Positions 8,567 to 39,809 of a stretch of 64,000 bases of DNA are shown here, one piece after another. The DNA comes from Escherichia virus TH41: the sequence record MT446412.1. The stretch is one strand, 5' to 3'. Under the pieces are notes generated by a model, which had not been told where the DNA came from, made no database searches, and worked only from the letters and a program-made list of their open reading frames with translations. A program made the position numbers and the translations under genes. The stretch's first letter is position 1, and every line of letters starts with the position of its first letter.

Positions 8567-8568
8567 GT

Positions 8569-8598
8569 GTTTACAACGGCAATGGATTGCCGTATGAT
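8569..8598 (+). promoter_or_regulatory. early promoter (cassette type) with spacer hairpin
   Basis: GTTTACA -35, 8-bp inverted repeat ACGGCAAT/ATTGCCGT in the spacer, TATGAT -10; leader CATCAACTGATGA before the imm ATG. Confidence 0.55.
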
Positions 8599-8635
8599 TA
8601 CCCCATCAACTGATGAATAACTTGAGGATATTAAA

Positions 8636-8878
8636 ATGGAAACATTAATTGCGGGTACTGTTGTTCTTGGTGCAGGTTCTTTCTTCCTGGCTGCACTGGC
8701 ATATTTTCTGCCGTGGATTATCGCGCTACTGCGTGGAACCAAAAGTAATTGCGGAATCTTCTTTGTTAACCTCCTGTTAGGTTGGACAATGGTCGGATGG
8801 TTTATTGCATTTATCTGGGCACTCGTTGCTGAACGTAAATCAAACGCACAAGTAATTATCATCAAGGAATCAAAATGA
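8636..8878 (+). CDS. imm: superinfection immunity membrane protein Imm-like
   Basis: 80 aa, two TM helices, YFLPWIIALLRG...LLGWT.VGWFIAFIWAL; T4 imm position downstream of 43. Confidence 0.55.
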   Translation: METLIAGTVVLGAGSFFLAALAYFLPWIIALLRGTKSNCGIFFVNLLLGWTMVGWFIAFIWALVAERKSNAQVIIIKESK

Positions 8879-9018
8879 AGATAATTACAATTATTGTATT
8901 GATTGCATTTTTTAGTATGTCAATCTATTGGGCAATAATGACTCCACATATGATTCCAACTTTAATTTTGGGTTGGGTATTTTTGGGGCTCCAAGCCCGC
9001 TATGAATGTTTTAATTAG
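8875..9018 (+). CDS. small hydrophobic protein (47 aa)
   Basis: ATGA overlap with imm stop; MKIITIIVLIAFF... single TM; below the ORF-track size cutoff. Confidence 0.3.
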   Translation: MKIITIIVLIAFFSMSIYWAIMTPHMIPTLILGWVFLGLQARYECFN

Positions 9019-9026
9019 GAAGCAAA

Positions 9027-9530
9027 ATGAAAAAGTTAGCTATCGCAGCTGTTATGCTGCTATCTGGTTGTGCTTACCAGGGTGATGTTGTTAATGCCAA
9101 CGAGATTGGTAAAGCGCGAATTGCTGCAGACCGTCAGGTGCATAATGGTTCCTTTGATTTCAAAGGTGGTACTGGACTTATCTACAAACGCGACAACAAT
9201 CAATGTGGAAACAACTGCGCGAAATATGCTCAACAAGAAATTGAGTACAAACGCGAGCAAGCTGCGAAGCATGACGAAATCATTGCCAAGCTGGAAGCAG
9301 AAACCAAGCGACAAAATGACCTGGACACTGTTAACCAGATTTCACAGGTCTGCATGTCATACATCAATATGCAGATAAACATCATGCGCGCAGAAGCTTA
9401 TCAGGCAGCGGAGATGGGTTCTCCAAAAGCTAATGAGTACCGCGATATGTATCAGCGTTCTGCTCAAAACCGTCTGAGCTATATTAATAAATGTGTAGCT
9501 AAAGAGAAAGCACGCCAAGGTATTAACTGA
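9027..9530 (+). CDS. putative lipoprotein (167 aa)
   Basis: Signal peptide with lipobox LLSGC; coiled-coil-rich; occupies the slot between imm and uvsX. Confidence 0.6.
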   Translation: MKKLAIAAVMLLSGCAYQGDVVNANEIGKARIAADRQVHNGSFDFKGGTGLIYKRDNNQCGNNCAKYAQQEIEYKREQAAKHDEIIAKLEAETKRQNDLDTVNQISQVCMSYINMQINIMRAEAYQAAEMGSPKANEYRDMYQRSAQNRLSYINKCVAKEKARQGIN

Positions 9531-9637
9531 TGTTATTATTACTTCTGATTGTTGTAACAGTAATTGGTTTGCTGCTATTAGAAAAGCGTAATAAGCATTT
9601 GGCTGAAGAAAACTGGAAATGTGGTAACGTTTACTGA
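9530..9637 (+). CDS. tiny membrane peptide (35 aa)
   Basis: ATG overlaps lipoprotein stop; MLLLLLIVVTVIGLLLL...; speculative. Confidence 0.25.
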   Translation: MLLLLLIVVTVIGLLLLEKRNKHLAEENWKCGNVY

Positions 9638-9721
9638 GTTAATTGCTCTAAAAATACAGTGATATAATTATCCTATCTTAAACCTGTGAGAAAAATATAA
9701 TGGTGCCTATGGAAAAAATGA

Positions 9722-10900
9722 ATGTCTATTGCAGATTTGAAATCCCGTTTGATTAAAGCTTCTACATCCAAAATGACTGCGACTCTTACCAAGTCCAAGT
9801 TCTTTAATGATAAAGATGTAGTTCGTACAAAAATCCCGATGCTGAACATTGCAATCAGCGGTGCACTAGATGGTGGTATGCAGTCAGGTTTGACTATTTT
9901 TGCTGGTCCGTCAAAACACTTTAAATCCAATATGGGTTTAACGATGGTCTCTGCATATATGAACAAATACCCCGATGCAATCTGTTTGTTCTATGATTCA
10001 GAATTTGGTATCACAGAAGCATATCTTCGTGCAATGAAAGTTGACCCGGAACGTGTTATCCATACACCAATCCAGTCGGTTGAACAATTGAAAGTTGATA
10101 TGGTTAACCAGCTTGAAGCAATTGAGCGTGGTGAAAAAGTCATTATCTTTATTGACTCAATCGGTAACATGGCGTCGAAAAAAGAAACAGAAGATGCGAT
10201 GAACGAAAAAGTTGTTGGCGATATGACTCGTGCTAAATCCCTGAAATCTCTGTTCCGTATTGTTACCCCATATTTTAGTATCAAGGATATTCCTTGTGTC
10301 GCGGTTAACCATACAATTGAGACGATTGAGATGTACAGCAAAACCGTTATGACCGGTGGCACAGGTGTTATGTATTCCGCAGACACCGTATTCATTATCG
10401 GCAAACGCCAGATTAAAGAAACTGGTAAAGAACTTGAAGGCTTCCAATTTGTTCTGAACGCCGAAAAATCTCGTATGGTCAAAGAGAAAAGTAAATTCTT
10501 CATTGATGTAAAATTCGATGGGGGTATTGACCCGTATTCTGGCCTGCTTGATATGGCAATGGAAATCGGATTTGTGGTGAAACCAAAAGTTGGTTGGTAT
10601 AACCGTGAATATCTTGATGTTGAGACCGGCGAAATGGTCCGCGAAGAAAAATCATGGCGCGCAAAAGATACTAACTGCACCGAATTCTGGGGTCCGCTGT
10701 TCAAGCACGAACCTTTCCGTGATGCAATTAAACGCCATTACCAACTGGGTGCAATCGATAGCAATGCTGTTGTTGATGCTGAAGTTGATGCGCTTATTGC
10801 CTCCAAGGTTGAAAAATACTCTGCTCCTGAAGGTAAGACAAAACCGTCCGCTGCAGATATCGAAAACGATTTAGATATGATGGAAGACCTTGATGAATGA
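9722..10900 (+). CDS. uvsX: RecA-like recombinase UvsX
   Basis: 392 aa; Walker A GPSKHFKS; near-collinear match to T4 UvsX. Confidence 0.95.
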   Translation: MSIADLKSRLIKASTSKMTATLTKSKFFNDKDVVRTKIPMLNIAISGALDGGMQSGLTIFAGPSKHFKSNMGLTMVSAYMNKYPDAICLFYDSEFGITEAYLRAMKVDPERVIHTPIQSVEQLKVDMVNQLEAIERGEKVIIFIDSIGNMASKKETEDAMNEKVVGDMTRAKSLKSLFRIVTPYFSIKDIPCVAVNHTIETIEMYSKTVMTGGTGVMYSADTVFIIGKRQIKETGKELEGFQFVLNAEKSRMVKEKSKFFIDVKFDGGIDPYSGLLDMAMEIGFVVKPKVGWYNREYLDVETGEMVREEKSWRAKDTNCTEFWGPLFKHEPFRDAIKRHYQLGAIDSNAVVDAEVDALIASKVEKYSAPEGKTKPSAADIENDLDMMEDLDE

Positions 10901-11234
10901 TATCGATTTATCTGATTTAGATAATTTCGAGAAAGATGCGGAGGGAGCTAAGGCTCCTTCTGTACCTTACTACGAAAAAAGTTTGGAGATTATCCGGCAA
11001 TCCATGGGAACCGTACGACAGGAAATTCTGTTATCACTCCCTGATGGGTCCAGTCACATTGTGTACGTAACCGGAATTAAAATTGAACCATCTGGAAAAG
11101 TTTCAGTTGATTTCGGCACCCCTTCTGAAGACCGCAAAGCGGAGCTTGCAGTGCATGTAGAAAAGTGTGTTACAATGCAAATACAAGATGAAATTGATAA
11201 GATTAAAATGAAAAAGAGGTGGTGGAAGTGGTAG
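10890..11234 (+). CDS. gp40-like protein (114 aa)
   Basis: Size and position between uvsX and 41 as T4 gene 40; sequence not independently recognised. Confidence 0.45.
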   Translation: MMNDIDLSDLDNFEKDAEGAKAPSVPYYEKSLEIIRQSMGTVRQEILLSLPDGSSHIVYVTGIKIEPSGKVSVDFGTPSEDRKAELAVHVEKCVTMQIQDEIDKIKMKKRWWKW

Positions 11235-12658
11235 AAACTATTTTATCCCAGCTACTCTTTAACAAGGAATATTTTGTTAAAGTCTGGCCATATCTGAATA
11301 ACACATATTTTGAAAAGGGTCCAGCAAAGACCCTTTTTAATACGATTAACGAACACGTAAAAGAATATCAAGCGGTACCAACTAAGACTGCACTTGATAT
11401 CGCGCTCGACAGTTCTGACCTTTCTGAAGTCGAATATGAAGGCACAAAGAAACTCTTAGGAGTCCTGGCCGATACTCCAGAAGACCAGGAATGGTTGGTT
11501 AAAGAAACCGAGAAGTATGTACAGAAGTCTGCGATGTTCAATGCCACATCCAGGATTATCGAAATCCAGAGCAATGCCGAACTTCCGAAAGATAAACGTG
11601 ATAAACGAATCCCGGATATTGGTGCTATCCCTGACATCATGCGCGATGCATTGTCTATCTGTTTTGACTCTGCTCTGGGCCATGACTGGTTAAACGATTA
11701 CGAAGCTCGATTCCAGACTTATCTGAACAAATCGAAGAAGGTTCCGTTCCGTATTAACATCCTGAATAAAATCACGAAGGGCGGGGTTGAGTACGGTACA
11801 GAGAACGTTTTACTGGCCGGGACGAACGTCGGCAAATCCCTTGGACTTTGTTCGCTGGCGGCTGACTATCTTCAGACTGGTCATAATGTGCTTTATATAA
11901 GCATGGAAATGGCTGAAGAAGTATGTGCCAAACGTATTGATGCCAACTTGCTGGATGTGTCTCTGGATGATATTGATGAAGGTCATGTGTCATGGGCGGA
12001 ATACAAAAGTAAGATGGAAAAATGGCGTGCAGCCGGGACCCTTGGGACTCTGAAGATAAAACAATATCCAACTGGCGGTGCTCATGCGGATACCTTCCGT
12101 GCATTGCTGAATGAATACAAACTGAAGCAAGGGTTTGTGCCGGATGTGATTATTGTTGACTACCTGGCAATCTGTGCAAGCTCAAGACTGAAAACGTTTA
12201 CCGAAAACAGTTACGGCCTGATTAAGATGGTTGCAGAAGAACTTCGTGGTCTGGCGGTCGAGAAAAATGTGGTCCTGTGGACTGCAGCGCAGACAACCAG
12301 GGGTGCGAACGTTGCAGCTGAGATTGATATGGCTGACATCGCTGAATCTTTTGGTATTGCTCACACGGCCGACTTTATGTTGGGTGTTGTTGAGACCGAA
12401 GAATTCGCTCAAATGGGACTACAGTTAATCAAACAGCTTAAGTCTCGTTACGGCGATAAGAACTACTATAATAAATTCAAGATGGGTGTTAAGAAAGGTA
12501 ATCAGCGCTGGTACGAGGTTGATGATGATTCAGCTCCTAAACAAGGCCCTACGGTTAAAGAAGCCACTGGTGAGATGAATCGCCAGGCTGAAATGAATAG
12601 ACAAACCAGGGTCAACAGGAGCGACCTGGACGACCTTGCTGCTCAAATGAAATTCTAA
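11219..12658 (+). CDS. 41: replicative DNA helicase gp41 (DnaB family)
   Basis: Walker A GTNVGKS, DnaB-like blocks matching T4 gp41; start probably GTG at 11228 (M-V-E-T-I-L) overlapping gp40 stop. Confidence 0.93.
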   Translation: MVEVVETILSQLLFNKEYFVKVWPYLNNTYFEKGPAKTLFNTINEHVKEYQAVPTKTALDIALDSSDLSEVEYEGTKKLLGVLADTPEDQEWLVKETEKYVQKSAMFNATSRIIEIQSNAELPKDKRDKRIPDIGAIPDIMRDALSICFDSALGHDWLNDYEARFQTYLNKSKKVPFRINILNKITKGGVEYGTENVLLAGTNVGKSLGLCSLAADYLQTGHNVLYISMEMAEEVCAKRIDANLLDVSLDDIDEGHVSWAEYKSKMEKWRAAGTLGTLKIKQYPTGGAHADTFRALLNEYKLKQGFVPDVIIVDYLAICASSRLKTFTENSYGLIKMVAEELRGLAVEKNVVLWTAAQTTRGANVAAEIDMADIAESFGIAHTADFMLGVVETEEFAQMGLQLIKQLKSRYGDKNYYNKFKMGVKKGNQRWYEVDDDSAPKQGPTVKEATGEMNRQAEMNRQTRVNRSDLDDLAAQMKF

Positions 12659-17587: not shown

Positions 17588-18106
17588 ATGGCACATTTTA
17601 ACGAATGTTCTCAACTGATTGCTGGTGTTGATAAAGCTCAAGGCGCTTATGATAATGCAATTTTTGAAGGCACTGACCCACTGCAAATTATGCTTGATAT
17701 GCAGAAATCGTTGCAGGTTCGTCTGGCTAAAGAAAAACCAGAATATAACGAACATCCTGATAACCTGGCGACTGCTGGTGAAGTTGTTACCTGGCTCCGC
17801 AACCAGAAAGATTATATTGATGATGAATTCCGTGAACTGATTACTGCATTAGGTGGCATGTCCAATGGCGAGAAAGCTGCCTCGGCCGTATGGAAGCCTT
17901 GGAAAGCACAACATGGCGAAATGCAGCAAACCCTAATTAATGATTTATCTCCTGAAGACCAGCTCGAAATTAAATTTGAGATGATTGATATCCTGCACTT
18001 TGTTCTGAATATGTTCCATGGCCTTGGACTGACTGCAGAAGAAATCTTTAAATTGTATTACCTGAAAAATGCTGAGAACTTTGCTCGTCAAGACCGAGGT
18101 TATTAA
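17588..18106 (+). CDS. 56: dCTP pyrophosphatase gp56 (MazG-like)
   Basis: ATG at 17588; MAHFNEC N-terminus and later blocks match T4 gp56. Confidence 0.85.
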   Translation: MAHFNECSQLIAGVDKAQGAYDNAIFEGTDPLQIMLDMQKSLQVRLAKEKPEYNEHPDNLATAGEVVTWLRNQKDYIDDEFRELITALGGMSNGEKAASAVWKPWKAQHGEMQQTLINDLSPEDQLEIKFEMIDILHFVLNMFHGLGLTAEEIFKLYYLKNAENFARQDRGY

Positions 18107-31027: not shown

Positions 31028-33262
31028 ATGATTTTAGAAACTGAAAAGGAAACAATCCTTGGTAATGGTGCCAAGGCATCAGCATTCACAATCCAGGCAT
31101 CTCCAAAGGTGTTTAAGATTCTGACCAGCGACCTTTATACAAACAAGGTGCGTGCGGTTGTTCGTGAGCTGATTACCAATATGATTGATGCTCATATGCT
31201 CAATGGTTGTCAGGATAAATTCATTGTGCAAGCTCCTGGTGAACTGGACCCACGTTTTGTATGCCGTGACTTTGGTCCGGGTATGAGTGATTTCCAGATT
31301 CGTGGTGATGAAAATACCCCAGGTCTGTATAACAGTTTCTTTGCATCATCCAAGGCTGAATCCAACGATTTTATTGGCGGCTTTGGTCTGGGCTCTAAAT
31401 CTCCGTTCAGTTATACAGAGACGTTTAGCCTGATTTCATATCACGATGGTCAAGTTAATGGTTATGTCGCTTATATGGACGGCGATGGCCCACAGATTAA
31501 ACCAACCTTTAGCGAACCAATGAAACCTGGTGACCGCACGGGGATTGAAGTTGTTGTCCCGGTTGATAGTAATGATTTTGGTAAGTTCCGCTACGAGATT
31601 GCATATATCATGCGTCCATTTGCTGGACTGGCTGAAGTGCAAGGCGTAAGCGAAATTGAATACTTCCCGGAATTTGATGATTATTATGCTCCAGAGCGTA
31701 TTAATTATAGCAGCCCAGAACGTTATGGTCTTTATGCAATTTACGGTGGAATTGTTTATCCAATTGCCGACGGTTATACAAAGAAAACCTGGATGACTGC
31801 CAAAAACGATGTTGTCTTTATTAAGTTCCCGATGGGTTCGTTGGATATTGCACCTTCTCGCGAAGCATTATCACTGGATAAACGTACGGTCGCAAATATC
31901 GTTGAACGTATTGAATCCCTTGATAAGAAAGTCATGGAAGATGATTGTAAGAAATGGCAGGAATCAGAATGTATCCGCCACACGTATCGCGAATTACAGA
32001 GTCTGAGTTATGAAGCTCGTAATTTTCTGAAAGCTCGTAATGCTGAAACGAAATTTACGAAATCGCAATTGACCTTTAACCAGATGTATGAAATGTTCGA
32101 GCTGGACAAAGACCTTATTAATGCCGGGGTTGTCTATGATATCTATAGCACTACCCGTCTGAAACGTCTGCGTAACTCAAGCTCGAACACGAATACTGCA
32201 AGTCTGACGAGCATGTTTGGTATTCAGAATAATACCTTGAACATTGTTATTGACGATGCTAAAGGGCGAATTGCGATGATTCGTGGTATCAGTTCAATGC
32301 TATATGACACCAGCGCGAAAGCCAAAAAGCTCAAAGCATCTGGTAAAGTCCCGACTGTACAAGGTAGTAGTCTATTGTTCGTTGACCCAACCAGCGAAAT
32401 TCAAACACGTCTGATGGTTCAACTTCAAGAACGATTTAAAGGCGATACAGTTAATATCTATCGTACGTCTGAACTGACCGCCCTTGTAAAAGACTGGATT
32501 CCGGTTGCTGACCCGAAAGCGCGCGTTAAGTCAAAGACTCCATCATTGATTCGTTGGACTAAAACTAATGGCAAATGGCAGTCTGTTGAAGAATTTACAT
32601 GTGCAGCTGATGCAGAGGAAATCGATGGTTATGCTGTATTCATTAACCGCAGTAGCATTTCCCCGTTGAATCAAGAATATGGCACCACGACCTTCGGGAC
32701 CCAGACATTGTGTAAACTGGCAAACCTGTTGGAAATCAATGAATTCTGTGTTATTCGTCCACAGCTTCAGAAAAAGATTACCAAGCTGGCGCAGTGTGAT
32801 TGTCTGATTGAAGCTGCAGTCAATCGTTATGTGGAATTGATTGATGCGGTTGATGCGGACCAGTACATTGCCGCTTCAAGCCGTTCGCGTTATTATATTC
32901 CTATCCTGTCTGAATATGCAGAACTGAATTTTATGTTCAAGTATTTTTATGCAAAAGATGTTCAGAAAGATGTGAATACTGACTATGCCGAATTAATGCA
33001 GTTCAATAAGTTCTTTGCTTATAACGCATATAACAGTGGAACAGTTGATAAGACCATGCAGGAAACTCTGGTCCTTTGTAATAAGATTTATGACGACCTG
33101 ACCAAAAACGCTTCGGTAACAAGCGATAAAATGGTTTTTGAATTTGAAAAGAATCACCCGATTGTTTCACACTTTTTATATAACCGTAACGCCATGTCAA
33201 CTGAACAAGTACAGAACGTTGCTCAAATCATGAAGGCCGTGGAAGCGGCCAATAAGGAATAA
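31028..33262 (+). CDS. rIIA: rIIA protein
   Basis: 744 aa; N-terminal GHKL-ATPase-like region; size and position as T4 rIIA. Confidence 0.9.
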   Translation: MILETEKETILGNGAKASAFTIQASPKVFKILTSDLYTNKVRAVVRELITNMIDAHMLNGCQDKFIVQAPGELDPRFVCRDFGPGMSDFQIRGDENTPGLYNSFFASSKAESNDFIGGFGLGSKSPFSYTETFSLISYHDGQVNGYVAYMDGDGPQIKPTFSEPMKPGDRTGIEVVVPVDSNDFGKFRYEIAYIMRPFAGLAEVQGVSEIEYFPEFDDYYAPERINYSSPERYGLYAIYGGIVYPIADGYTKKTWMTAKNDVVFIKFPMGSLDIAPSREALSLDKRTVANIVERIESLDKKVMEDDCKKWQESECIRHTYRELQSLSYEARNFLKARNAETKFTKSQLTFNQMYEMFELDKDLINAGVVYDIYSTTRLKRLRNSSSNTNTASLTSMFGIQNNTLNIVIDDAKGRIAMIRGISSMLYDTSAKAKKLKASGKVPTVQGSSLLFVDPTSEIQTRLMVQLQERFKGDTVNIYRTSELTALVKDWIPVADPKARVKSKTPSLIRWTKTNGKWQSVEEFTCAADAEEIDGYAVFINRSSISPLNQEYGTTTFGTQTLCKLANLLEINEFCVIRPQLQKKITKLAQCDCLIEAAVNRYVELIDAVDADQYIAASSRSRYYIPILSEYAELNFMFKYFYAKDVQKDVNTDYAELMQFNKFFAYNAYNSGTVDKTMQETLVLCNKIYDDLTKNASVTSDKMVFEFEKNHPIVSHFLYNRNAMSTEQVQNVAQIMKAVEAANKE

Positions 33263-33263
33263 T

Positions 33264-34238
33264 ATGTTTAATATCAAATGTATGTCTAAAGCCGAACAAG
33301 CTGATGTGGTCCAGATGTATTCAACGGGCAATTATACCCAGCCTGAATTGGCAGAATATTTTGCTGTGTCCGTTGACACCATTCGTCGCGTTTTGAAAAA
33401 TGATAAAGAATCAAAATTAGCTAAAACCATTTCTGCATCACTGAAAGCCGCTGTCGGGGTGGCGATTAATGCTCCGGTGACAGTAACGGTTGAAGTCCCG
33501 GTTGTTGAAGATACAATCGGCGGTAGCCGTCCAGAAATCGTATGGAACGCCTCAAGCAAATTCGTTTCCATCACTGAAGGTCGTACAGTCTGGAACGCAA
33601 CAAAAGACCATAAACACTTTGATGATATTATTCAGGCACTCAAAGAATCTCGTTTTGATGATGCTATCGAGTTTATCTCAATCAAAGCTGCAGTACAAAA
33701 ATATGTGAAAGGTGATGTGCGTATTGAAGGTGGTAGTTTGTTCTATCAGGGAATTGAACTGCGCTCTGGCCTGGTTACTCGTATCATTGATTCAATGCAA
33801 AATGGCGAAGACTTTGAATTCTATCTACCGTTCCTTGAGAATCTCCTTGAGAACCCGAGTGAGAAAGCCGTACAGCGTTTGTTTGACTTCCTGGTTGCGA
33901 ACGATATCGAAATCACCGAAGACGGCCATTTCATCGCATGGAAAATGGTTCGTGCAACTTACAAAGATTGTCACTCAAACACATTCGACAACAGCCCTGG
34001 TCAATATGTTAAAATGCCGCGCTCTCGTGTGAATGATAATGACGAACAGACCTGTTCAACCGGGTTGCATGTTTGCTCTAAAGGCTATATCGGAAGTGGT
34101 TTTGGTCATGGTGATGGACGCATCGTATCCTGTAAAGTTCACCCGCGTGATGTTGTAAGTATCCCGGTTGATTATAACGATTCCAAAATGCGGGTCTGTG
34201 GTTACCTGGTTCTTGATGATGTAACTGAACAATTCTAA
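33264..34238 (+). CDS. rIIB: rIIB protein
   Basis: 324 aa starting 1 nt after rIIA stop; size and position as T4 rIIB. Confidence 0.85.
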   Translation: MFNIKCMSKAEQADVVQMYSTGNYTQPELAEYFAVSVDTIRRVLKNDKESKLAKTISASLKAAVGVAINAPVTVTVEVPVVEDTIGGSRPEIVWNASSKFVSITEGRTVWNATKDHKHFDDIIQALKESRFDDAIEFISIKAAVQKYVKGDVRIEGGSLFYQGIELRSGLVTRIIDSMQNGEDFEFYLPFLENLLENPSEKAVQRLFDFLVANDIEITEDGHFIAWKMVRATYKDCHSNTFDNSPGQYVKMPRSRVNDNDEQTCSTGLHVCSKGYIGSGFGHGDGRIVSCKVHPRDVVSIPVDYNDSKMRVCGYLVLDDVTEQF

Positions 34239-34244
34239 ATTAAT

Positions 34245-34260
34245 CGGGGCTTCGGCCCCT
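34245..34260 (+). other. TTCG-tetraloop hairpin without U-tract
   Basis: GGGGC-TTCG-GCCCC after rIIB stop. Confidence 0.4.
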
Positions 34261-34271
34261 AATGAGGCTTT

Positions 34272-34469
34272 ATGTTAGGTTTCCAAGCACGTGTAGTTGA
34301 AGAACATGACCAGCTGGTTTTGAAAATCAATGCTCTTGAAGAATTTATTAAGGGCGGTGTTTTTGAAACTCTCGATGCTCGTCAACAAGGTCTTTTGATT
34401 GCCCAGTTAGATGCGATGGGCGCATATGCTCATATTCTGGCAACTCGTATCTCTTATTTTGGTGAATAA
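34272..34469 (+). CDS. hypothetical protein (65 aa)
   Basis: ORF. Confidence 0.5.
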   Translation: MLGFQARVVEEHDQLVLKINALEEFIKGGVFETLDARQQGLLIAQLDAMGAYAHILATRISYFGE

Positions 34470-34472
34470 ATT

Positions 34473-34793
34473 ATGATTAACTATATGAACGTTGGCGATG
34501 AATCTATTAATGAAATTCGGTTGCATGGTAATCATGTTGCGGATATTGTTTATTGTGTTGATTGTCATTATGCTTCTACAAAGTCAACTGGCCGGTTATA
34601 TGCGAGAGACATCATTCTTGCAACGAAAGAAGAACTTCGTAGTCTGGACCATTCTACTCTAGCCGAAAGTGCCAGAATTTATTATGGCGTCGTTCATGTA
34701 GACAAAGTTTATATTGGCAGTGATTATCAAGAGCAAGCTGAGCAAAATTCTTTGGATATTGTCGAAAAATCCGATATGTATTTTAAAGGATGA
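34473..34793 (+). CDS. hypothetical protein (106 aa)
   Basis: ORF. Confidence 0.5.
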   Translation: MINYMNVGDESINEIRLHGNHVADIVYCVDCHYASTKSTGRLYARDIILATKEELRSLDHSTLAESARIYYGVVHVDKVYIGSDYQEQAEQNSLDIVEKSDMYFKG

Positions 34794-34797
34794 GCTG

Positions 34798-35391
34798 ATG
34801 ATTCAGAAGAGTAAAACATGGGAGCATCTGAAAAAGATGCCCTCCTTTCTTTATACAAAGGAAGACTTAACCCCCGAATCCCTGCAAAAGATTGTAGATA
34901 CAGCCAGGTATTCATTGCGTAAAGACCCGGGTCAGGACCGTGAGCAAGTCATGCAAAGATGTATGGTGGCTACAATGGCTGAACAAGCTATTGCTAAATG
35001 GACTTCAGGTTTTTTATGTGGCGGTGATGAAGATTACGATAATCCTTATTCCTTTGCATTTGATGTAGTTTCGAAGGAAGGGGTAAGAATCGAAGTCAAG
35101 ACTCATCAGTCTGGTTCCAAATGGATATCCGTACATACTGGTCACCAGGGTGATTATCCACATGGTTACGGGGTTAATCTTGGCCCTTTTATGCAGCACA
35201 AGCTTGCTGACCTTATGATTATGTTTAATGTAAAAGAGACTCTCAAAGGTTATAGATTTAAACCAAAATTCCTTGCTGGGCCTGGTGCTTTCGTTCCTGA
35301 GTCTGGTCTTGTGCAGAAATCACAAGGGGATGGCTGGTACCTCCGTTCTTGTTCAGAAGAAAAATTTCCCTATCACCGGTTTACAAGCTGA
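34798..35391 (+). CDS. hypothetical protein with PD-(D/E)xK-like nuclease motif (about 197 aa)
   Basis: ORF 34714..35391 with ATG at 34798; FAFDVV...IEVKT resembles D...E-x-K; in the region where T4 has denB. Confidence 0.5.
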   Translation: MIQKSKTWEHLKKMPSFLYTKEDLTPESLQKIVDTARYSLRKDPGQDREQVMQRCMVATMAEQAIAKWTSGFLCGGDEDYDNPYSFAFDVVSKEGVRIEVKTHQSGSKWISVHTGHQGDYPHGYGVNLGPFMQHKLADLMIMFNVKETLKGYRFKPKFLAGPGAFVPESGLVQKSQGDGWYLRSCSEEKFPYHRFTS

Positions 35392-35403
35392 ACCAACTGT
35401 GTA

Positions 35404-35437
35404 ATAATGTCCTCATACCAACAAATGAGGACATTAT
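35404..35437 (+). promoter_or_regulatory. 13-bp stem-loop sequestering the RBS of the downstream ORF
   Basis: TAATGTCCTCAT-accaacaa-ATGAGGACATTA perfect stem; GAGGA Shine-Dalgarno lies in the 3' arm, ATG at 35439. Confidence 0.6.
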
Positions 35438-35438
35438 C

Positions 35439-35714
35439 ATGGAACACGTTACTACTCACAACATCAAACAAATTCTTATCCAAGCACTCAAAAACAACAA
35501 CATCAATTTTCCAACCCATGAAATTTTTGATGTAGCATTCAACGAAGTCCAGGGTCAAGTTGCATATTATGACGTTATCGTTTATCTTTCAGAATTTGAA
35601 GTCTACCACCTGACTGAAATTGCTTTCTATCTCTATCGTGGGACTGCAGATTTTACTGGGGTCGTGAATGCAGTTGGCGCATATAAAGAAGTTAAAGAAC
35701 AAATGCACAATTAA
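35439..35714 (+). CDS. hypothetical protein (91 aa)
   Basis: ORF 35349..35714 with ATG at 35439. Confidence 0.5.
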   Translation: MEHVTTHNIKQILIQALKNNNINFPTHEIFDVAFNEVQGQVAYYDVIVYLSEFEVYHLTEIAFYLYRGTADFTGVVNAVGAYKEVKEQMHN

Positions 35715-35724
35715 TTAAAAAGTA

Positions 35725-35754
35725 GTGTACATCAGTATGGAGTCTATGTATAAT
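35725..35754 (+). promoter_or_regulatory. early promoter cassette
   Basis: GTGTACA, 17 nt, TATAAT; leader CCATACTGAGTT. Confidence 0.6.
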
Positions 35755-35788
35755 GATTCCATACTGAGTTACCAAACTGGAGAATAAA

Positions 35789-35944
35789 ATGAAACCTGCT
35801 CAATATGCAATGACTTTATACCTTGAAGTTAATGGCGATATTACTGAATTTTTTAAATTAATGCAACAGCGCGGAAAAAGTTTTGCAGTTACTGAGCGTC
35901 AATTTTACGCTTGCCGTAAAAATACATACAATCGTTATGCGTGA
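35789..35944 (+). CDS. small hypothetical protein (51 aa)
   Basis: ATG after GGAGAA RBS directly after the cassette leader. Confidence 0.35.
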   Translation: MKPAQYAMTLYLEVNGDITEFFKLMQQRGKSFAVTERQFYACRKNTYNRYA

Positions 35945-35954
35945 GGAAAACAGA

Positions 35955-36221
35955 ATGGATATTAAATTATACTACGCCAAACACAAAGTTACAGGTATGG
36001 TTGTTGCTGCTATGTATGATGCGTCAGGTGATGGTGATGATATTACTACAGAATTGTCTCTTTCTGAATGTAAATTTCTTCGCCCGCTAGTTGCCTCAAA
36101 GCGTGATTTAAAAAAGCTTATTGATGGAAAACTGGATAATGTTGATGGCATAGATATTCTTTATGACCTTCGCACCGCATTGCACAGGGGTCTGATTGAA
36201 ATAAAAGAGGTGATATTTTGA
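35955..36221 (+). CDS. hypothetical protein (88 aa)
   Basis: ORF 35883..36221 with ATG at 35955. Confidence 0.5.
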   Translation: MDIKLYYAKHKVTGMVVAAMYDASGDGDDITTELSLSECKFLRPLVASKRDLKKLIDGKLDNVDGIDILYDLRTALHRGLIEIKEVIF

Positions 36222-36311
36222 GCAGCAAAACCTGGTGTCTTATCTGGATGTTGTGTATCCCAGTAATTTGCGTTTGTTTTAGTTTATTATTAATGAAACT
36301 TGCATAAAAGA

Positions 36312-36340
36312 GTGTACATCTCCGGTGGTTGTAGTATAAT
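36312..36340 (+). promoter_or_regulatory. early promoter cassette
   Basis: GTGTACA, 16 nt, TATAAT; leader CTATCAACTACTGGAG. Confidence 0.55.
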
Positions 36341-36360
36341 GAACCTATCAACTACTGGAG

Positions 36361-36483
36361 ATGATTATGAAAAAGTTACTTAAAGCCATTTGGAACATGT
36401 TTGTACTGTTTGTTGTCCTGAGCATTTTCCCAATTGTTTTTATGATTGACCATGTACGCGTTTACTTTAACTATTTCTTTTGA
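36361..36483 (+). CDS. small membrane peptide (40 aa)
   Basis: ATG after the leader; MIMKKLLKAIWNMFVLFVVLSIFPIVF. Confidence 0.3.
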   Translation: MIMKKLLKAIWNMFVLFVVLSIFPIVFMIDHVRVYFNYFF

Positions 36484-36493
36484 GGATAATATT

Positions 36494-36700
36494 ATGAATT
36501 ACAATTCACAATTTCAGAAATCTAATCGTCGCTTTGACTTTATGTTCAAGTTTATTGTGGCAATGATTATCCTGATTTTCATTGGTGCCATTGCAATGAT
36601 TGGTTTCCAGCTCTGGATTGCTGCTGAAGTGTTCACACAAATCCAGGATAATGGTTTGAAGTCTGTTGTTGATGTAATTTGGAATGGTGCTAAGCAATGA
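36494..36700 (+). CDS. small membrane protein (68 aa)
   Basis: ORF 36446..36700 with ATG at 36494 after GAGGA. Confidence 0.45.
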   Translation: MNYNSQFQKSNRRFDFMFKFIVAMIILIFIGAIAMIGFQLWIAAEVFTQIQDNGLKSVVDVIWNGAKQ

Positions 36701-36942
36701 AACTTTTTAAAGACATTGCAGTTGGTGAAAAATTTGTCCTGGGTAATGGTCAACAACTGATTCGCATTTCGCCTTTAATGGATAACAGTGAGCGCCCTGT
36801 GCGTACTGAAAACTGTTTGGATTATCCTTTTTATCAGAAACGTTTTGCAATTGAAAATAATACTGAGTGCTTCACAGTTGATGAACTGATGGAATCATCA
36901 GAAGAAGTTGACTTGTGGGATGGCGCGGTAGATGTAGAATAG
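36697..36942 (+). CDS. hypothetical protein (81 aa)
   Basis: ORF overlapping the previous stop. Confidence 0.5.
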   Translation: MKLFKDIAVGEKFVLGNGQQLIRISPLMDNSERPVRTENCLDYPFYQKRFAIENNTECFTVDELMESSEEVDLWDGAVDVE

Positions 36943-36971
36943 TGTACAAACTCATGGGAGCAGAGTATAAT
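36942..36971 (+). promoter_or_regulatory. early promoter cassette
   Basis: GTGTACA, 17 nt, TATAAT. Confidence 0.6.
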
Positions 36972-37009
36972 GTTCCCGTGGATAATAAAATTTAATTGAG
37001 GAAAATATT

Positions 37010-37427: not shown

Positions 37428-37877
37428 ATGACTACTTACATGACCCGTCGTGACGTACTGAATGCTGGTGCTACCACTGTTGCTTATATCCATAATGGTA
37501 ATTATGTTGCCGGTCGCCCAACTAAAGAAGCTATCGCTCAACCAGGTTTTTATTTCGTGGTTAAAGGTGAAGGCGAATCACGTATTGTTGCTGCACGTTT
37601 TTATGTTGGTAACCAACGTTCACAACAAGGGTTTGACACTGTATTAAGTCACATCCGCAAACAACGTTCACAATTGTCTCGCACAATGGCGAACAATGGT
37701 GTTATCTATGAAGTCCTGTTTGTTCCAGTTTCTAAAATGAAACCCCTGACAACTGGTTATGGTAAAGGTCAAATTGCGATGGCGTTCACTCGCTCACATA
37801 GTTCTGATTGCCAGACCCTTTCAGAAATGAATCGCATGCTTGCTGATAACTTTAAATTCATTCTGCAGAGCTATTAA
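37428..37877 (+). CDS. Ndd-like protein (149 aa)
   Basis: Size and position (between rIIB and 52) as T4 nucleoid-disruption protein Ndd; recalled similarity, not verified. Confidence 0.5.
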
Positions 37878-38429: not shown

Positions 38430-39809
38430 ATGTCTGACGTTTTAAGTATGATGTCCAAACAGTTCAGTGATTCTATGGGGACCCTTAACCCACGCAGTCT
38501 AAAAGACATTATTGACGTGGAAGCATTGTCATATGCTATCTACACTGTGGAAGGTCGTGCCATTCCAAACATGATTGATGGTTTTAAACCAGTTCACAGA
38601 TTTGTTATGGCGAGAGCATTAGACCTGGCTCGTGGTGATAAGAATAAATTCCATAAGGTTGCATCCATTGCAGGTGGCGTAGCTGATTATGGTTATCACC
38701 ATGGCGAAGCATCAGCGGAAGAAGCAACTTCTGGTTTGGTCGCAACATATAAAAATGAATATCCTATGTTTGATGGGCAAGGTAACTTTGGTTCCAGAAT
38801 GGTTCCAGAAGCATCATCAGCTCGTTATGTATTCGCAAGGGTTTCAAAGAACTTTTACAACTTGTTTAAGGATACAGAATATGCTCCGGTCCATCCTGAT
38901 GAAGAACATAAGCCTCCTGCTTTTTATCTTCCTGTTATTCCTACTGTATTACTTAACGCCACTTCTGGGATTGCTGTTGGCTTCGCTACTGATATCCTTC
39001 CTCATTCGTTCCAGGACGTCAAGGAAGCTGTTAAAGCTATCGTGGAAGGTCGTGAGCCGGTTGCTCCGAAAGTAAAATATCCAGAATTCCGTGGTAAAGT
39101 TGTTGAGCTGGAAGAGCCTGGTAAGTATGAACTTCACGGCACATACAAAATGACCTCAAGGACTCAAATGGAAATTACTGAAATCCCGGTCCAATGGAAC
39201 CTGGAAAAATATACAAGTAAAATCCTGGACCCACTGGAAGAGAAAGGTTTTATCACCTGGAAAGATAACTGCGGCGAGCATGGTTTTGGGTTTAAGATTA
39301 AATTCCGCAAAGAATACAAGTTGGATGGCACTGAAGAAGAGAATCATGAGAAAATCATGAAAGACTTTGGTCTGATTGAGAAACTCTCCCAGAACTTAAC
39401 TGTGCTTAATCACAAAGGCAAATTAGCTGAATACACCAACACGCTTGACCTGATTCGCGATTTCGTTGATGTCCGTAAGACCTATGTTCAAGTGCGAATT
39501 GACAGTAAGATTAAAGAAACTGAAGCGGCATTTAAACTGGCCCGGGCAAAAGTCTTCTTTATTAAAGAAGTGATTGATGGTAAGGTTGTTATCCAGGGGA
39601 AACCTCGTAAGAAGTTGATTGAGGAACTCCAGGCGAGTGAAATATATGGCGATTATGCAGAGAAGTTAGTGGCGATGAACATCTACCATATGACCTCTGA
39701 TGAAGCCAAGAAGCTTGCAGACGAAGCAAAGGCTAAGAAAGCTGAGCATGAGTACTGGAAGACAACTGATGTTAAAACTGAATACCTTAATGATTTGGAG
39801 GCTCTATGA
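38430..39809 (+). CDS. 52: DNA topoisomerase II medium subunit gp52 (GyrA-like)
   Basis: 459 aa; breakage-reunion domain blocks; size and position as T4 gp52. Confidence 0.93.
   Translation: MSDVLSMMSKQFSDSMGTLNPRSLKDIIDVEALSYAIYTVEGRAIPNMIDGFKPVHRFVMARALDLARGDKNKFHKVASIAGGVADYGYHHGEASAEEATSGLVATYKNEYPMFDGQGNFGSRMVPEASSARYVFARVSKNFYNLFKDTEYAPVHPDEEHKPPAFYLPVIPTVLLNATSGIAVGFATDILPHSFQDVKEAVKAIVEGREPVAPKVKYPEFRGKVVELEEPGKYELHGTYKMTSRTQMEITEIPVQWNLEKYTSKILDPLEEKGFITWKDNCGEHGFGFKIKFRKEYKLDGTEEENHEKIMKDFGLIEKLSQNLTVLNHKGKLAEYTNTLDLIRDFVDVRKTYVQVRIDSKIKETEAAFKLARAKVFFIKEVIDGKVVIQGKPRKKLIEELQASEIYGDYAEKLVAMNIYHMTSDEAKKLADEAKAKKAEHEYWKTTDVKTEYLNDLEAL

What the first reader, a model, noticed from the sequence alone, without database searches (positions are those of the whole stretch)
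34798..35391. Candidate PD-(D/E)xK nuclease downstream of rIIB
The roughly 197-aa product contains FAFDVV...GVRIEVKT, consistent with the D...(D/E)-x-K core of restriction-endonuclease-like nucleases. It lies where T4 encodes endonuclease IV (denB). Whether it is a DenB ortholog or a different nuclease cannot be decided from sequence alone.
Basis: inference. Interest (0 to 1): 0.4.

Follow-up and report, generated by a model that had tools for sequence, protein, structure and literature searches.

The report
Phage DenB endonuclease IV gene

Summary
The ORF is real. It runs from ATG 34798 to TGA 35391 on the + strand, encodes 197 aa, has a Shine-Dalgarno site, and carries FAFD89VV and VRIE99VK101T as described.

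- PHROG 1360 matches over the full length (E 2e-80).
- It is 46% identical to T4 DenB (E 1e-58).
- It is 100% identical to the annotated "DNA endonuclease IV" of Escherichia phage vB_EcoM_RZ (Gaprivervirus).
- The gene order matches T4: rIIA-rIIB-denB.1-denB...ndd...gene 52.

The PD-(D/E)xK reading also holds.
- E62, D89, E99 and K101 are invariant in 57 homologs.
- They are the only invariant residues once relatives of 18-26% identity are added.
- A 2025 paper already states this fold assignment for DenB.

[quoted passage not shown] It would act on host and unmodified DNA.

Verdict: correct observation, already known, low interest. One open side issue is that this phage lineage lacks the known hydroxymethylcytosine synthase, and its DenB belongs to a diverged long form.

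The parts
34786..34790 (+). Shine-Dalgarno-like AAGGA, 7 nt upstream of the denB start codon
   Evidence: Read directly from the sequence.
34798..35391 (+). denB coding sequence (197 aa plus stop): DenB / endonuclease IV ortholog, a single-domain PD-(D/E)xK nuclease
   Evidence: ORF; PHROG 1360, E 2e-80, full length; 100% identical annotated DNA endonuclease IV; 46% identity to T4 DenB, E 1e-58; fold.
34981..34983 (+). Codon for E62, the conserved glutamate in core helix 48-68 (inferred metal ligand)
   Evidence: Invariant in A2 (57 sequences) and A3 (30 sequences, including distant relatives). Helix position.
35008..35010 (+). Codon for G71, equivalent to T2 DenB G71, whose G71R change inactivates the enzyme
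   Evidence: Invariant in A2. Aligned to T4 G71. The mutant is described in PMC12916289.
35059..35064 (+). Codons for F88-D89, the 'PD' motif equivalent. D89 is the inferred catalytic aspartate; F88 corresponds to T4 W88 (W88R has <0.4% activity)
   Evidence: D89 is invariant. Position 88 is always aromatic (F 26, Y 20, W 11). Alignment to T4. The mutant is described in PMC2175332.
35092..35100 (+). Codons for E99-V100-K101, the (D/E)xK motif inside strand 97-103
   Evidence: Invariant in A2. E99 and K101 are also invariant in A3. Strand position.
35320..35322 (+). Codon for S175, equivalent to T4 DenB Ser176, which directs polarised cleavage of dC tracts
   Evidence: Invariant in A2. Alignment. 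PMC2175332.
33264..34238 (+). rIIB (genomic context)
   Evidence: PHROG 609 RIIB, E 4e-103. 62% identical to T4 rIIB.
34272..34469 (+). denB.1 homolog (context; function unknown)
   Evidence: 50% identical to T4 DenB.1, E 2e-22. Pfam crAss001_48, E 4e-19.
34473..34793 (+). DUF7418 ORF directly upstream of denB (context). It is absent at this position in T4 and present in JS10 and many other T-even phages
   Evidence: Pfam DUF7418, E 7e-26. 313 phage records hold a match. JS10 gene order.
37428..37877 (+). ndd (context; completes the T4-like rIIB...denB...ndd...52 gene order)
   Evidence: 61% identical to T4 Ndd, E 3e-69.

Best explanation
The gene encodes the DenB (endonuclease IV) ortholog of a Gaprivervirus-type T-even phage.

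It is a small single-domain nuclease of the PD-(D/E)xK (restriction-endonuclease-like) superfamily. The inferred active site has four parts: E62 on the core helix, D89 at the start of the second core strand, and E99 and K101 on the third strand. Together they would bind Mg2+ and position the attacking water.

By homology with the T4 and T2 enzymes, it should cut single-stranded DNA on the 5' side of unmodified deoxycytidine. T4 DenB prefers 5'-T|CA-3' and cleaves dC tracts in a polarised way that depends on Ser176, which is S175 here.

The expected targets during infection are single-stranded gaps in host and other unmodified DNA. Cutting them would help destroy that DNA and block its replication, while the phage's own modified-cytosine DNA would be spared.

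Two further consequences are known for close homologs. The protein is toxic when expressed in E. coli, and its cleavage of retron msDNA triggers the Eco2 defence system.

Shown here: the ORF, orthology, gene order, conservation of the catalytic and specificity residues, and a predicted fold of the PD-(D/E)xK type. Inferred: enzymatic activity, dC specificity and biological role.
For: Orthology:
- PHROG 1360 'DenB-like DNA endonuclease IV', E 2e-80, covering 1-196 of 197 residues.
- BLASTP against T4 DenB: 46% identity, E 1e-58.
- 1090 phage records hold a homolog. Those at 95-100% identity are annotated DNA endonuclease IV.
- Every homolog in the 5.8-billion-protein collection carries the same precomputed Pfam family, PF26887.

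Gene order: rIIB, the denB.1 homolog, denB, ndd and gene 52 follow the T4 order.

Catalytic residues:
- E62, G71, D89, R97, E99, V100, K101, T102, D138 and S175 are invariant in 57 sequences.
- With relatives of 18-26% identity added, only E62, D89, E99 and K101 remain invariant.

Fold:
- AF2 model with pLDDT 92.7 and pTM 0.89. Helix 48-68, a strand at 90-91 and strand 97-103 carry the motif residues.
- Foldseek PDB: NhoI E 4e-4, Eco15I-N E 1e-3.
- Sub-threshold Pfam hits fall on nuclease-type families: NOV_C in 28 of 57 members, plus AHJR-like, PDDEXK_5 and Hjc. That NOV_C belongs to the PD-(D/E)xK clan is from my memory.

Literature:
- The canonical active site is E on the helix, D on strand 2 and (D/E)XK on strand 3 (PMC11347163).
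- DenB was assigned a PD-(D/E)xK motif from AF2 models (PMC12405507).
- T4 W88R is inactive and S176N loses polarised cleavage (PMC2175332).
- T2 G71R is inactive, and G180E and W181* are Eco2 escapers (PMC12916289). The equivalent residues here are F88, S175, G71, G179 and W180.

The window also encodes the dCTPase gp56 (67% identity), part of the same host-versus-phage cytosine system.
Against: - No biochemistry exists for this protein. Its activity and dC specificity are transferred from a 46%-identical enzyme.
- Structural similarity to solved nucleases is moderate (Z no higher than 7.4, 7-16% identity).
- The tools returned no residue-level superposition. Placement of E62, D89, E99 and K101 in the active site therefore rests on secondary-structure position and conservation.
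- The local Pfam-A, NCBIfam and PADLOC libraries gave no significant hit.
- The phage lineage lacks the known dCMP hydroxymethylase and glucosyltransferase. How its own DNA escapes a dC-specific nuclease is not explained by the T4 scheme.
- This DenB is unusually diverged: 48% identical to the JS10 protein, against 67-85% for neighbouring genes. Altered specificity cannot be excluded.
Confidence: 0.9

Rival explanations
1. It is a DenB-family nuclease whose substrate discrimination has shifted. The lineage lacks hydroxymethylcytosine synthesis. The enzyme might therefore distinguish host dC from a different, unidentified cytosine modification, or recognise another sequence or structure than T4 DenB does.
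For: - No gp42, beta-gt or dam homolog was found in the window, or in 145 of the 170 kb of the closest annotated relative, vB_EcoM_RZ.
- Two papers note that Gaprivervirus lacks the hmC enzyme yet keeps denB, alc, denA and gp56 (PMC8056088; PMC12115623).
- VR7 DNA is reported to carry modified but unglycosylated cytosines (PMC6326788).
- The window DenB is 48% identical to JS10 DenB, while flanking genes are 67-85% identical and JS10 versus T4 DenB is 72%.
- It is a long form with a conserved C-terminal extension.
Against: - The catalytic residues and those tied to specificity or DNA binding in T4 and T2 are all conserved: S175, G179, W180 and an aromatic residue at 88.
- A dC-specific enzyme would work unchanged with any cytosine modification that blocks it, so no shift in specificity is required.
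Confidence: 0.08
2. It is a catalytically dead or non-nuclease relic of denB, kept for another role such as DNA binding.
For: None specific. No activity data exist for this protein.
Against: - All four catalytic residues and G71 are invariant.
- The ORF is intact and nearly identical (95-100%) in 34 phage records.
- The model is confidently folded.
Confidence: 0.01
3. It is an unrelated restriction-like or homing endonuclease that happens to sit at the denB position (the alternative the first reader left open).
For: The nearest solved structures are Type II and modification-dependent restriction enzymes.
Against: - Direct full-length homology to T4 DenB, E 1e-58.
- A full-length PHROG 1360 match.
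- No extra DNA-binding or homing-endonuclease domains.
- The structural matches to restriction enzymes are at superfamily level only (7-16% identity).
Confidence: 0.01

Closest known systems
Bacteriophage T4 endonuclease IV (DenB, NP_049887; PHROG 1360 / Pfam PF26887)
   Same: - Orthologous: 46% identity over 178 residues, E 1e-58.
- Same genomic position, after rIIB and denB.1 and before ndd and gene 52.
- Same invariant E/D/ExK residues.
- Same residues at the experimentally informative positions: G71, an aromatic at 88, S176 (S175 here), G180 and W181 (G179 and W180 here).
   Different: - 197 aa against 185 aa, with a C-terminal extension of about 12 residues (RSCSEEKFPYHRFTS) that is conserved in the long-form subgroup.
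- F instead of W before the catalytic Asp.
- An extra DUF7418 ORF lies between denB.1 and denB.
- The host phage lacks gp42 and the glucosyltransferases.
DNA endonuclease IV of Escherichia phage vB_EcoM_RZ (UGL59839 / YP_010650860) and other Gaprivervirus phages (VR25, UPEC01, DK-13, vB_YenM_P8)
   Same: 100% (RZ) and 97.5% (VR25) protein identity. The flanking genes are the same.
   Different: Nothing of substance. The window DNA is about 96% identical to these records over 33000-37000.
BisI-family modification-dependent restriction endonucleases NhoI and Eco15I N-terminal domain (PDB 8q5n, 8q5m, 8rpx)
   Same: - A PD-(D/E)xK core with a Glu on the core helix, an aromatic-Asp 'PD' motif (WD in NhoI, WD in T4 DenB, FD here) and an xVK motif (PMC11347163).
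- Both enzyme types read the modification state of cytosine.
   Different: - Only 9-17% identity, so there is no family-level relation.
- The BisI enzymes are dimers that cut double-stranded GCNGC and require methylated or hydroxymethylated C. DenB cuts single-stranded DNA at unmodified C.
- The BisI motif is Q-V-K, not E-V-K.
Type II restriction endonucleases and other PD-(D/E)xK nucleases (R.SwaI, DpnI, PvuII, HincII, Hjc, MutH, RecU, DXO/Rai1, influenza PA-N)
   Same: A shared core fold and the same catalytic motif positions.

Membership tests
DenB / phage endonuclease IV family (PHROG 1360, PF26887) | Full-length sequence homology to T4 DenB | tested here: met
   PHROG 1360, E 2e-80, 1-196 of 197 residues. 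BLASTP against T4 DenB, 46% identity, E 1e-58. All homologs carry precomputed PF26887.
DenB / phage endonuclease IV family (PHROG 1360, PF26887) | Position in the T-even early region between rIIB/denB.1 and ndd/gene 52 | tested here: met
   Window gene order: rIIA, rIIB, denB.1 homolog, DUF7418 ORF, denB, ndd, gene 52.
DenB / phage endonuclease IV family (PHROG 1360, PF26887) | Conservation of the residues shown by mutation to matter in T4 and T2 DenB (G71, W88, S176, G180, W181) | tested here: met
   G71 and S175 are invariant. Position 88 is always aromatic (F here). G179 is present in 54 of 57 sequences, and position 180 is W/Y/F in 55 of 57. The mutants are described.
DenB / phage endonuclease IV family (PHROG 1360, PF26887) | Mg2+-dependent cleavage of ssDNA 5' of unmodified dC; no cleavage of hmC or glucosyl-hmC DNA | not testable with these tools
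   Known only for the T4 and T2 enzymes (PMC1635256, PMC2175332, PMC12916289).
DenB / phage endonuclease IV family (PHROG 1360, PF26887) | A phage genome with modified cytosine, so that its own DNA is spared | tested here: inconclusive
   The dCTPase gp56 is present in the window. No gp42, beta-gt or dam was found in the window or in most of the RZ genome. VR7, of the same genus, is reported to have modified, unglycosylated cytosines (PMC6326788).
PD-(D/E)xK (restriction-endonuclease-like) nuclease superfamily | A core fold of one alpha-helix followed by antiparallel beta-strands, similar to solved members | tested here: met
   [not shown]
PD-(D/E)xK (restriction-endonuclease-like) nuclease superfamily | Catalytic residues in the canonical elements: an acidic residue on the core helix, Asp at the start of strand 2, and (D/E)xK in strand 3 | tested here: met
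   E62 lies in helix 48-68, D89 directly precedes strand 90-91, and E99-V-K101 lie in strand 97-103. All are invariant, and they are the only invariant residues with distant relatives included. The definition comes from PMC11347163.
PD-(D/E)xK (restriction-endonuclease-like) nuclease superfamily | Residue-by-residue superposition of the motif on the active site of a solved member | not tested
   The fold searches return scores only, with no aligned residues or coordinates.
PD-(D/E)xK (restriction-endonuclease-like) nuclease superfamily | A significant sequence-profile match to a curated PD-(D/E)xK family | tested here: inconclusive
   Only sub-threshold hits were found: NOV_C in 28 of 57 members (best E 2.5e-4 to 4.5e-3, below the gathering score), AHJR-like, PDDEXK_5 and Hjc. 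There is no PDB hit by sequence.

The most novel reading that the evidence does not exclude
This DenB is a diverged long form. It is 48% identical to the DenB of its sister genus, against 67-85% for flanking genes. The phage lineage (Gaprivervirus) keeps the whole anti-dC toolkit (DenB, dCTPase gp56, and by literature Alc and DenA) but has no recognisable dCMP hydroxymethylase or glucosyltransferase.

The most novel reading not excluded is that the phage makes a cytosine modification by an unidentified enzyme, and that this DenB has co-evolved to spare that base. denB would then be a genomic marker for an undiscovered DNA-modification pathway.
Probability: 0.35. Interest if true: 0.55.

Novelty: already known. 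Interest (0 to 1): 0.1.

Why it matters
As an annotation it matters little. The gene is already labelled DNA endonuclease IV in identical GenBank records, and the PD-(D/E)xK assignment for DenB has been published.

The useful outcomes are three:
- DenB is shown to be a small, narrow family: 49 clusters at 50% identity among 1.84 billion representative proteins.
- A known puzzle is flagged again: a dC-specific nuclease sits in a phage genus without the known hmC pathway. That puzzle can be tested directly by nucleoside mass spectrometry of the phage DNA.

DenB also has current relevance as the phage trigger of the retron Eco2 defence. The residues mutated in Eco2 escapers are conserved here.

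Tried and rejected
- The local Pfam-A scan gave no significant hit for the protein. The family PF26887 exists only in the precomputed annotations.
- NCBIfam gave only one non-significant hit (adenosine deaminase, E 0.082). PADLOC gave nothing.
- Sequence searches of the PDB gave only chance hits (PsaI, LSP1/PIL1, E at least 0.03), with both the single sequence and the 57-sequence profile.
- The afdb50 fold library was not available.
- The alternative TTG start at 34714 (225 aa) was rejected. It overlaps the upstream DUF7418 ORF, and homologs start at the ATG.
- The bare D...(D/E)xK pattern was rejected as evidence, because 78% of shuffles contain it.
- I looked for a gp42 substitute. tblastn with T4 gp42, beta-gt and dam against the window and 145 kb of phage RZ found nothing. 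A Pfam scan of ten larger unannotated RZ proteins gave no candidate base-modifying enzyme. RZ bases 95001-120000, the structural-gene region, were not fetched.
- Reading the gene as a defence-type or homing nuclease was rejected, given its direct homology to DenB.

Full report
**Observation.** ATG is at 34798 and TGA at 35389-35391 on the + strand, giving 197 aa. An AAGGA Shine-Dalgarno sequence lies 7 nt upstream. The previous ORF stops four bases before the ATG, so the genes are packed as in an operon.

A longer in-frame TTG start at 34714 is listed mechanically. It overlaps the upstream gene, and no homolog supports it.

The two quoted motifs are F86-A-F-D89-V-V and V96-R-I-E99-V-K101-T. 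As a bare pattern, D-x(5-25)-[DE]-x-K is worthless, because 78% of shuffled versions of this protein contain it. Only 0.8% contain it in the hydrophobic strand context seen here. The motif alone would therefore not justify the claim. Conservation and fold do.

**What it is.** The protein matches PHROG 1360, "DenB-like DNA endonuclease IV", end to end (E 2e-80). It is 46% identical to T4 DenB (NP_049887) over 178 residues (E 1e-58).

A tblastn search finds homologs in 1090 phage records. Thirty-four of them are 95-100% identical. These include a 100% match annotated "DNA endonuclease IV" in Escherichia phage vB_EcoM_RZ (Gaprivervirus) and a 97.5% match in VR25.

The window DNA is about 96% identical to Gaprivervirus-type genomes over 33000-37000 and 99.9% identical to phage UPEC01 over 8500-9800.

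The gene order matches T4:
- rIIA (31028-33262)
- rIIB (33264-34238)
- a denB.1 homolog (34272-34469; 50% identical to T4 DenB.1)
- this gene
- ndd (37428-37877; 61% identical)
- gene 52 (38430-39809)

The one difference from T4 is an extra DUF7418 ORF (34473-34793) between denB.1 and denB. JS10 and many other T-even phages also carry it there. It is the DenB ortholog.

**Fold and active site.** The local Pfam, NCBIfam and PADLOC libraries and sequence searches of the PDB gave nothing significant. I therefore tested the fold by prediction.

A 57-sequence alignment reaching down to 33% identity has these invariant residues: A58, E62, G71, D89, R97, E99, V100, K101, T102, D138 and S175.

An exhaustive HMMER search of 1.84 billion cluster representatives found only 49 proteins at E no greater than 1e-3. 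All are single-domain proteins of about 150-230 aa, apart from a few shorter fragments, so the family is small and narrow. I aligned the most distant of them (18-26% identity) with the window protein and T4 DenB. The only invariant residues left are E62, D89, E99 and K101.

AlphaFold2 on the alignment gives a confident model (pLDDT 92.7, pTM 0.89). In it, E62 lies in helix 48-68, D89 directly precedes a short strand (90-91), and E99-V-K101 lie inside strand 97-103.

This is the canonical PD-(D/E)xK layout as defined in the structural literature: a glutamate on the core helix, an aspartate at the start of the second strand, and (D/E)XK on the third (PMC11347163).

In the viral structure library the best hits are DenB homologs. 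More distant phage proteins follow, some of them labelled restriction endonuclease.

Sub-threshold Pfam hits point the same way: NOV_C in 28 of 57 members, plus AHJR-like, PDDEXK_5 and Hjc.

The tools give no residue-level structural superposition.

**Mechanism.** For T4 and T2 DenB, experiments have shown the following:
- The enzyme needs Mg2+, acts on single-stranded DNA, and leaves dC at the 5' end of the products.
- It prefers 5'-TCA-3'.
- It cleaves dC tracts at the 5'-proximal dC in a polarised way that depends on Ser176.
- It does not cut glucosyl-hmC T4 DNA.
- It is lethal when expressed in E. coli (PMC1635256, PMC2095790, PMC2175332).
- It cleaves retron Eco2 msDNA and so triggers that defence. 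Escaper mutations are G71R (inactive enzyme), G180E and W181* (PMC12916289).

One group has already stated that DenB carries a PD-(D/E)xK motif, based on AF2 models (PMC12405507).

All the informative residues are conserved in the window protein:
- G71 is present.
- An aromatic residue (F88) precedes D89. In T4, W88R abolishes activity, which fits its place next to the catalytic Asp.
- S175 corresponds to T4 S176.
- G179 and W180 correspond to T2 G180 and W181.

I therefore infer, at about 0.9 confidence, that this protein is an active dC-specific ssDNA endonuclease that uses E62, D89, E99 and K101 for metal-dependent hydrolysis. The activity itself is inferred, not shown.

**What does not fit the T4 scheme.** The window encodes the dCTPase gp56 (67% identical to T4's). 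It has no homolog of gp42 (dCMP hydroxymethylase), beta-glucosyltransferase or Dam.

In T4, genes 42 and beta-gt lie between imm and uvsX. In the window that interval holds only a 167-aa lipoprotein-like ORF at 9027-9530.

The annotated relative RZ shows the same arrangement. It has a single thymidylate-synthase-family gene (td), and tblastn finds no gp42 in the 145 of its 170 kb that I examined.

This is a known puzzle. Two papers note that Gaprivervirus lacks the hmC enzyme while keeping denB, alc, denA and the dCTPase, and they propose an unknown non-canonical base (PMC8056088; PMC12115623). Restriction analysis indicated that VR7 DNA carries modified but unglycosylated cytosines (PMC6326788).

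I add one observation. The window DenB is only 48% identical to the DenB of the sister genus Dhakavirus (JS10). The flanking genes are 67-85% identical, and JS10 DenB is 72% identical to T4 DenB.

The window protein also belongs to a long form (197-204 aa) with a conserved C-terminal extension. Its nearest relatives outside the genus are metagenomic proteins and the DenB of Pectobacterium phage PM2 and Klebsiella phage Marfa. Whether this reflects gene replacement or adaptation to a different modified base cannot be decided here.

A Pfam scan of ten larger unannotated RZ proteins gave no candidate modifying enzyme.

**Verdict.** The undecided point resolves in favour of DenB orthology.

Nothing here is new. 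Identical proteins are already annotated as endonuclease IV, and the fold class is published. Interest is low (0.1).

The only lead worth keeping is the side issue of how a gp42-less phage lineage coexists with its own dC-specific nuclease. That concerns the genome as a whole and is already noted in the literature.

Noticed in passing
window 8566-9722 (imm 8636-8878; ORF 9027-9530; uvsX from 9722), and the whole window: T4 has gene 42 (dCMP hydroxymethylase) and beta-gt between imm and uvsX. The window has only a 167-aa ORF there, with a lipoprotein-type signal (MKKLAIAAVMLLSGC). tblastn finds no gp42, beta-gt or dam anywhere in the window, although the dCTPase gp56 is present at 17588-18103. 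The relative vB_EcoM_RZ shows the same. The literature calls this an unsolved question for Gaprivervirus, which may carry an unknown modified cytosine.
   Followed up: partly
window 34798-35391 compared with L008 (JS10) 1538-2014: DenB is far more diverged from the sister genus Dhakavirus (48% identity) than the neighbouring genes are: rIIB 71%, denB.1 85%, ndd 75%, gene 52 67%. JS10 DenB is 72% identical to T4 DenB. The window protein is a long form with a conserved C-terminal extension of about 12 aa. This could mean gene replacement or fast evolution.
   Followed up: partly
window 34246-34259: A perfect GGGGC-UUCG-GCCCC hairpin (UUCG tetraloop) lies in the 33-nt gap between rIIB and the denB.1 homolog. 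This is the kind of stable intercistronic hairpin known from T4 mRNAs (from memory). There is no T-run after it on the + strand.
   Followed up: no
window 35397-35442: A strong stem-loop lies just after denB and directly abuts the ATG (35439) of the next ORF (35439-35714, PHROG 17571, function unknown). Its core is 13 bp at 35404-35437 (AUAAUGUCCUCAU...AUGAGGACAUUAU). Folding gives dG -20.2 kcal/mol and z -4.1, and none of 200 shuffles folds as well. A promoter-like site (TTTACA-17-AATAAT with TG) at 35380-35408 overlaps its 5' arm. It may control translation or stabilise the RNA.
   Followed up: partly
window 34473-34793: A DUF7418 / PHROG 2237 ORF (106 aa, function unknown) is inserted between denB.1 and denB. 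It is absent at this place in T4 but present in 313 phage records, usually beside denB. In several records (T6 NC_054907, S16, PG7) the feature under the match is labelled DenB-like endonuclease IV or endonuclease. This looks like annotation spill-over, or a longer CDS call.
   Followed up: partly
window 34272-34469: The denB.1 homolog (65 aa) matches Pfam PF21825, 'crAss001_48 related protein' (E 4e-19). A small helical protein family is thus shared between T-even and crAss-like phages. In phage vB_YenM_P8 this ORF is annotated 'endonuclease', which nothing found here supports.
   Followed up: no
L004 (vB_EcoM_RZ) 10059-12288 compared with window 31028-33262: rIIA is one intact 744-aa ORF in the window. 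In the RZ record it is annotated as two overlapping CDSs (10059-11024 and 11014-12288), which suggests a frameshift or sequencing error in that record.
   Followed up: no
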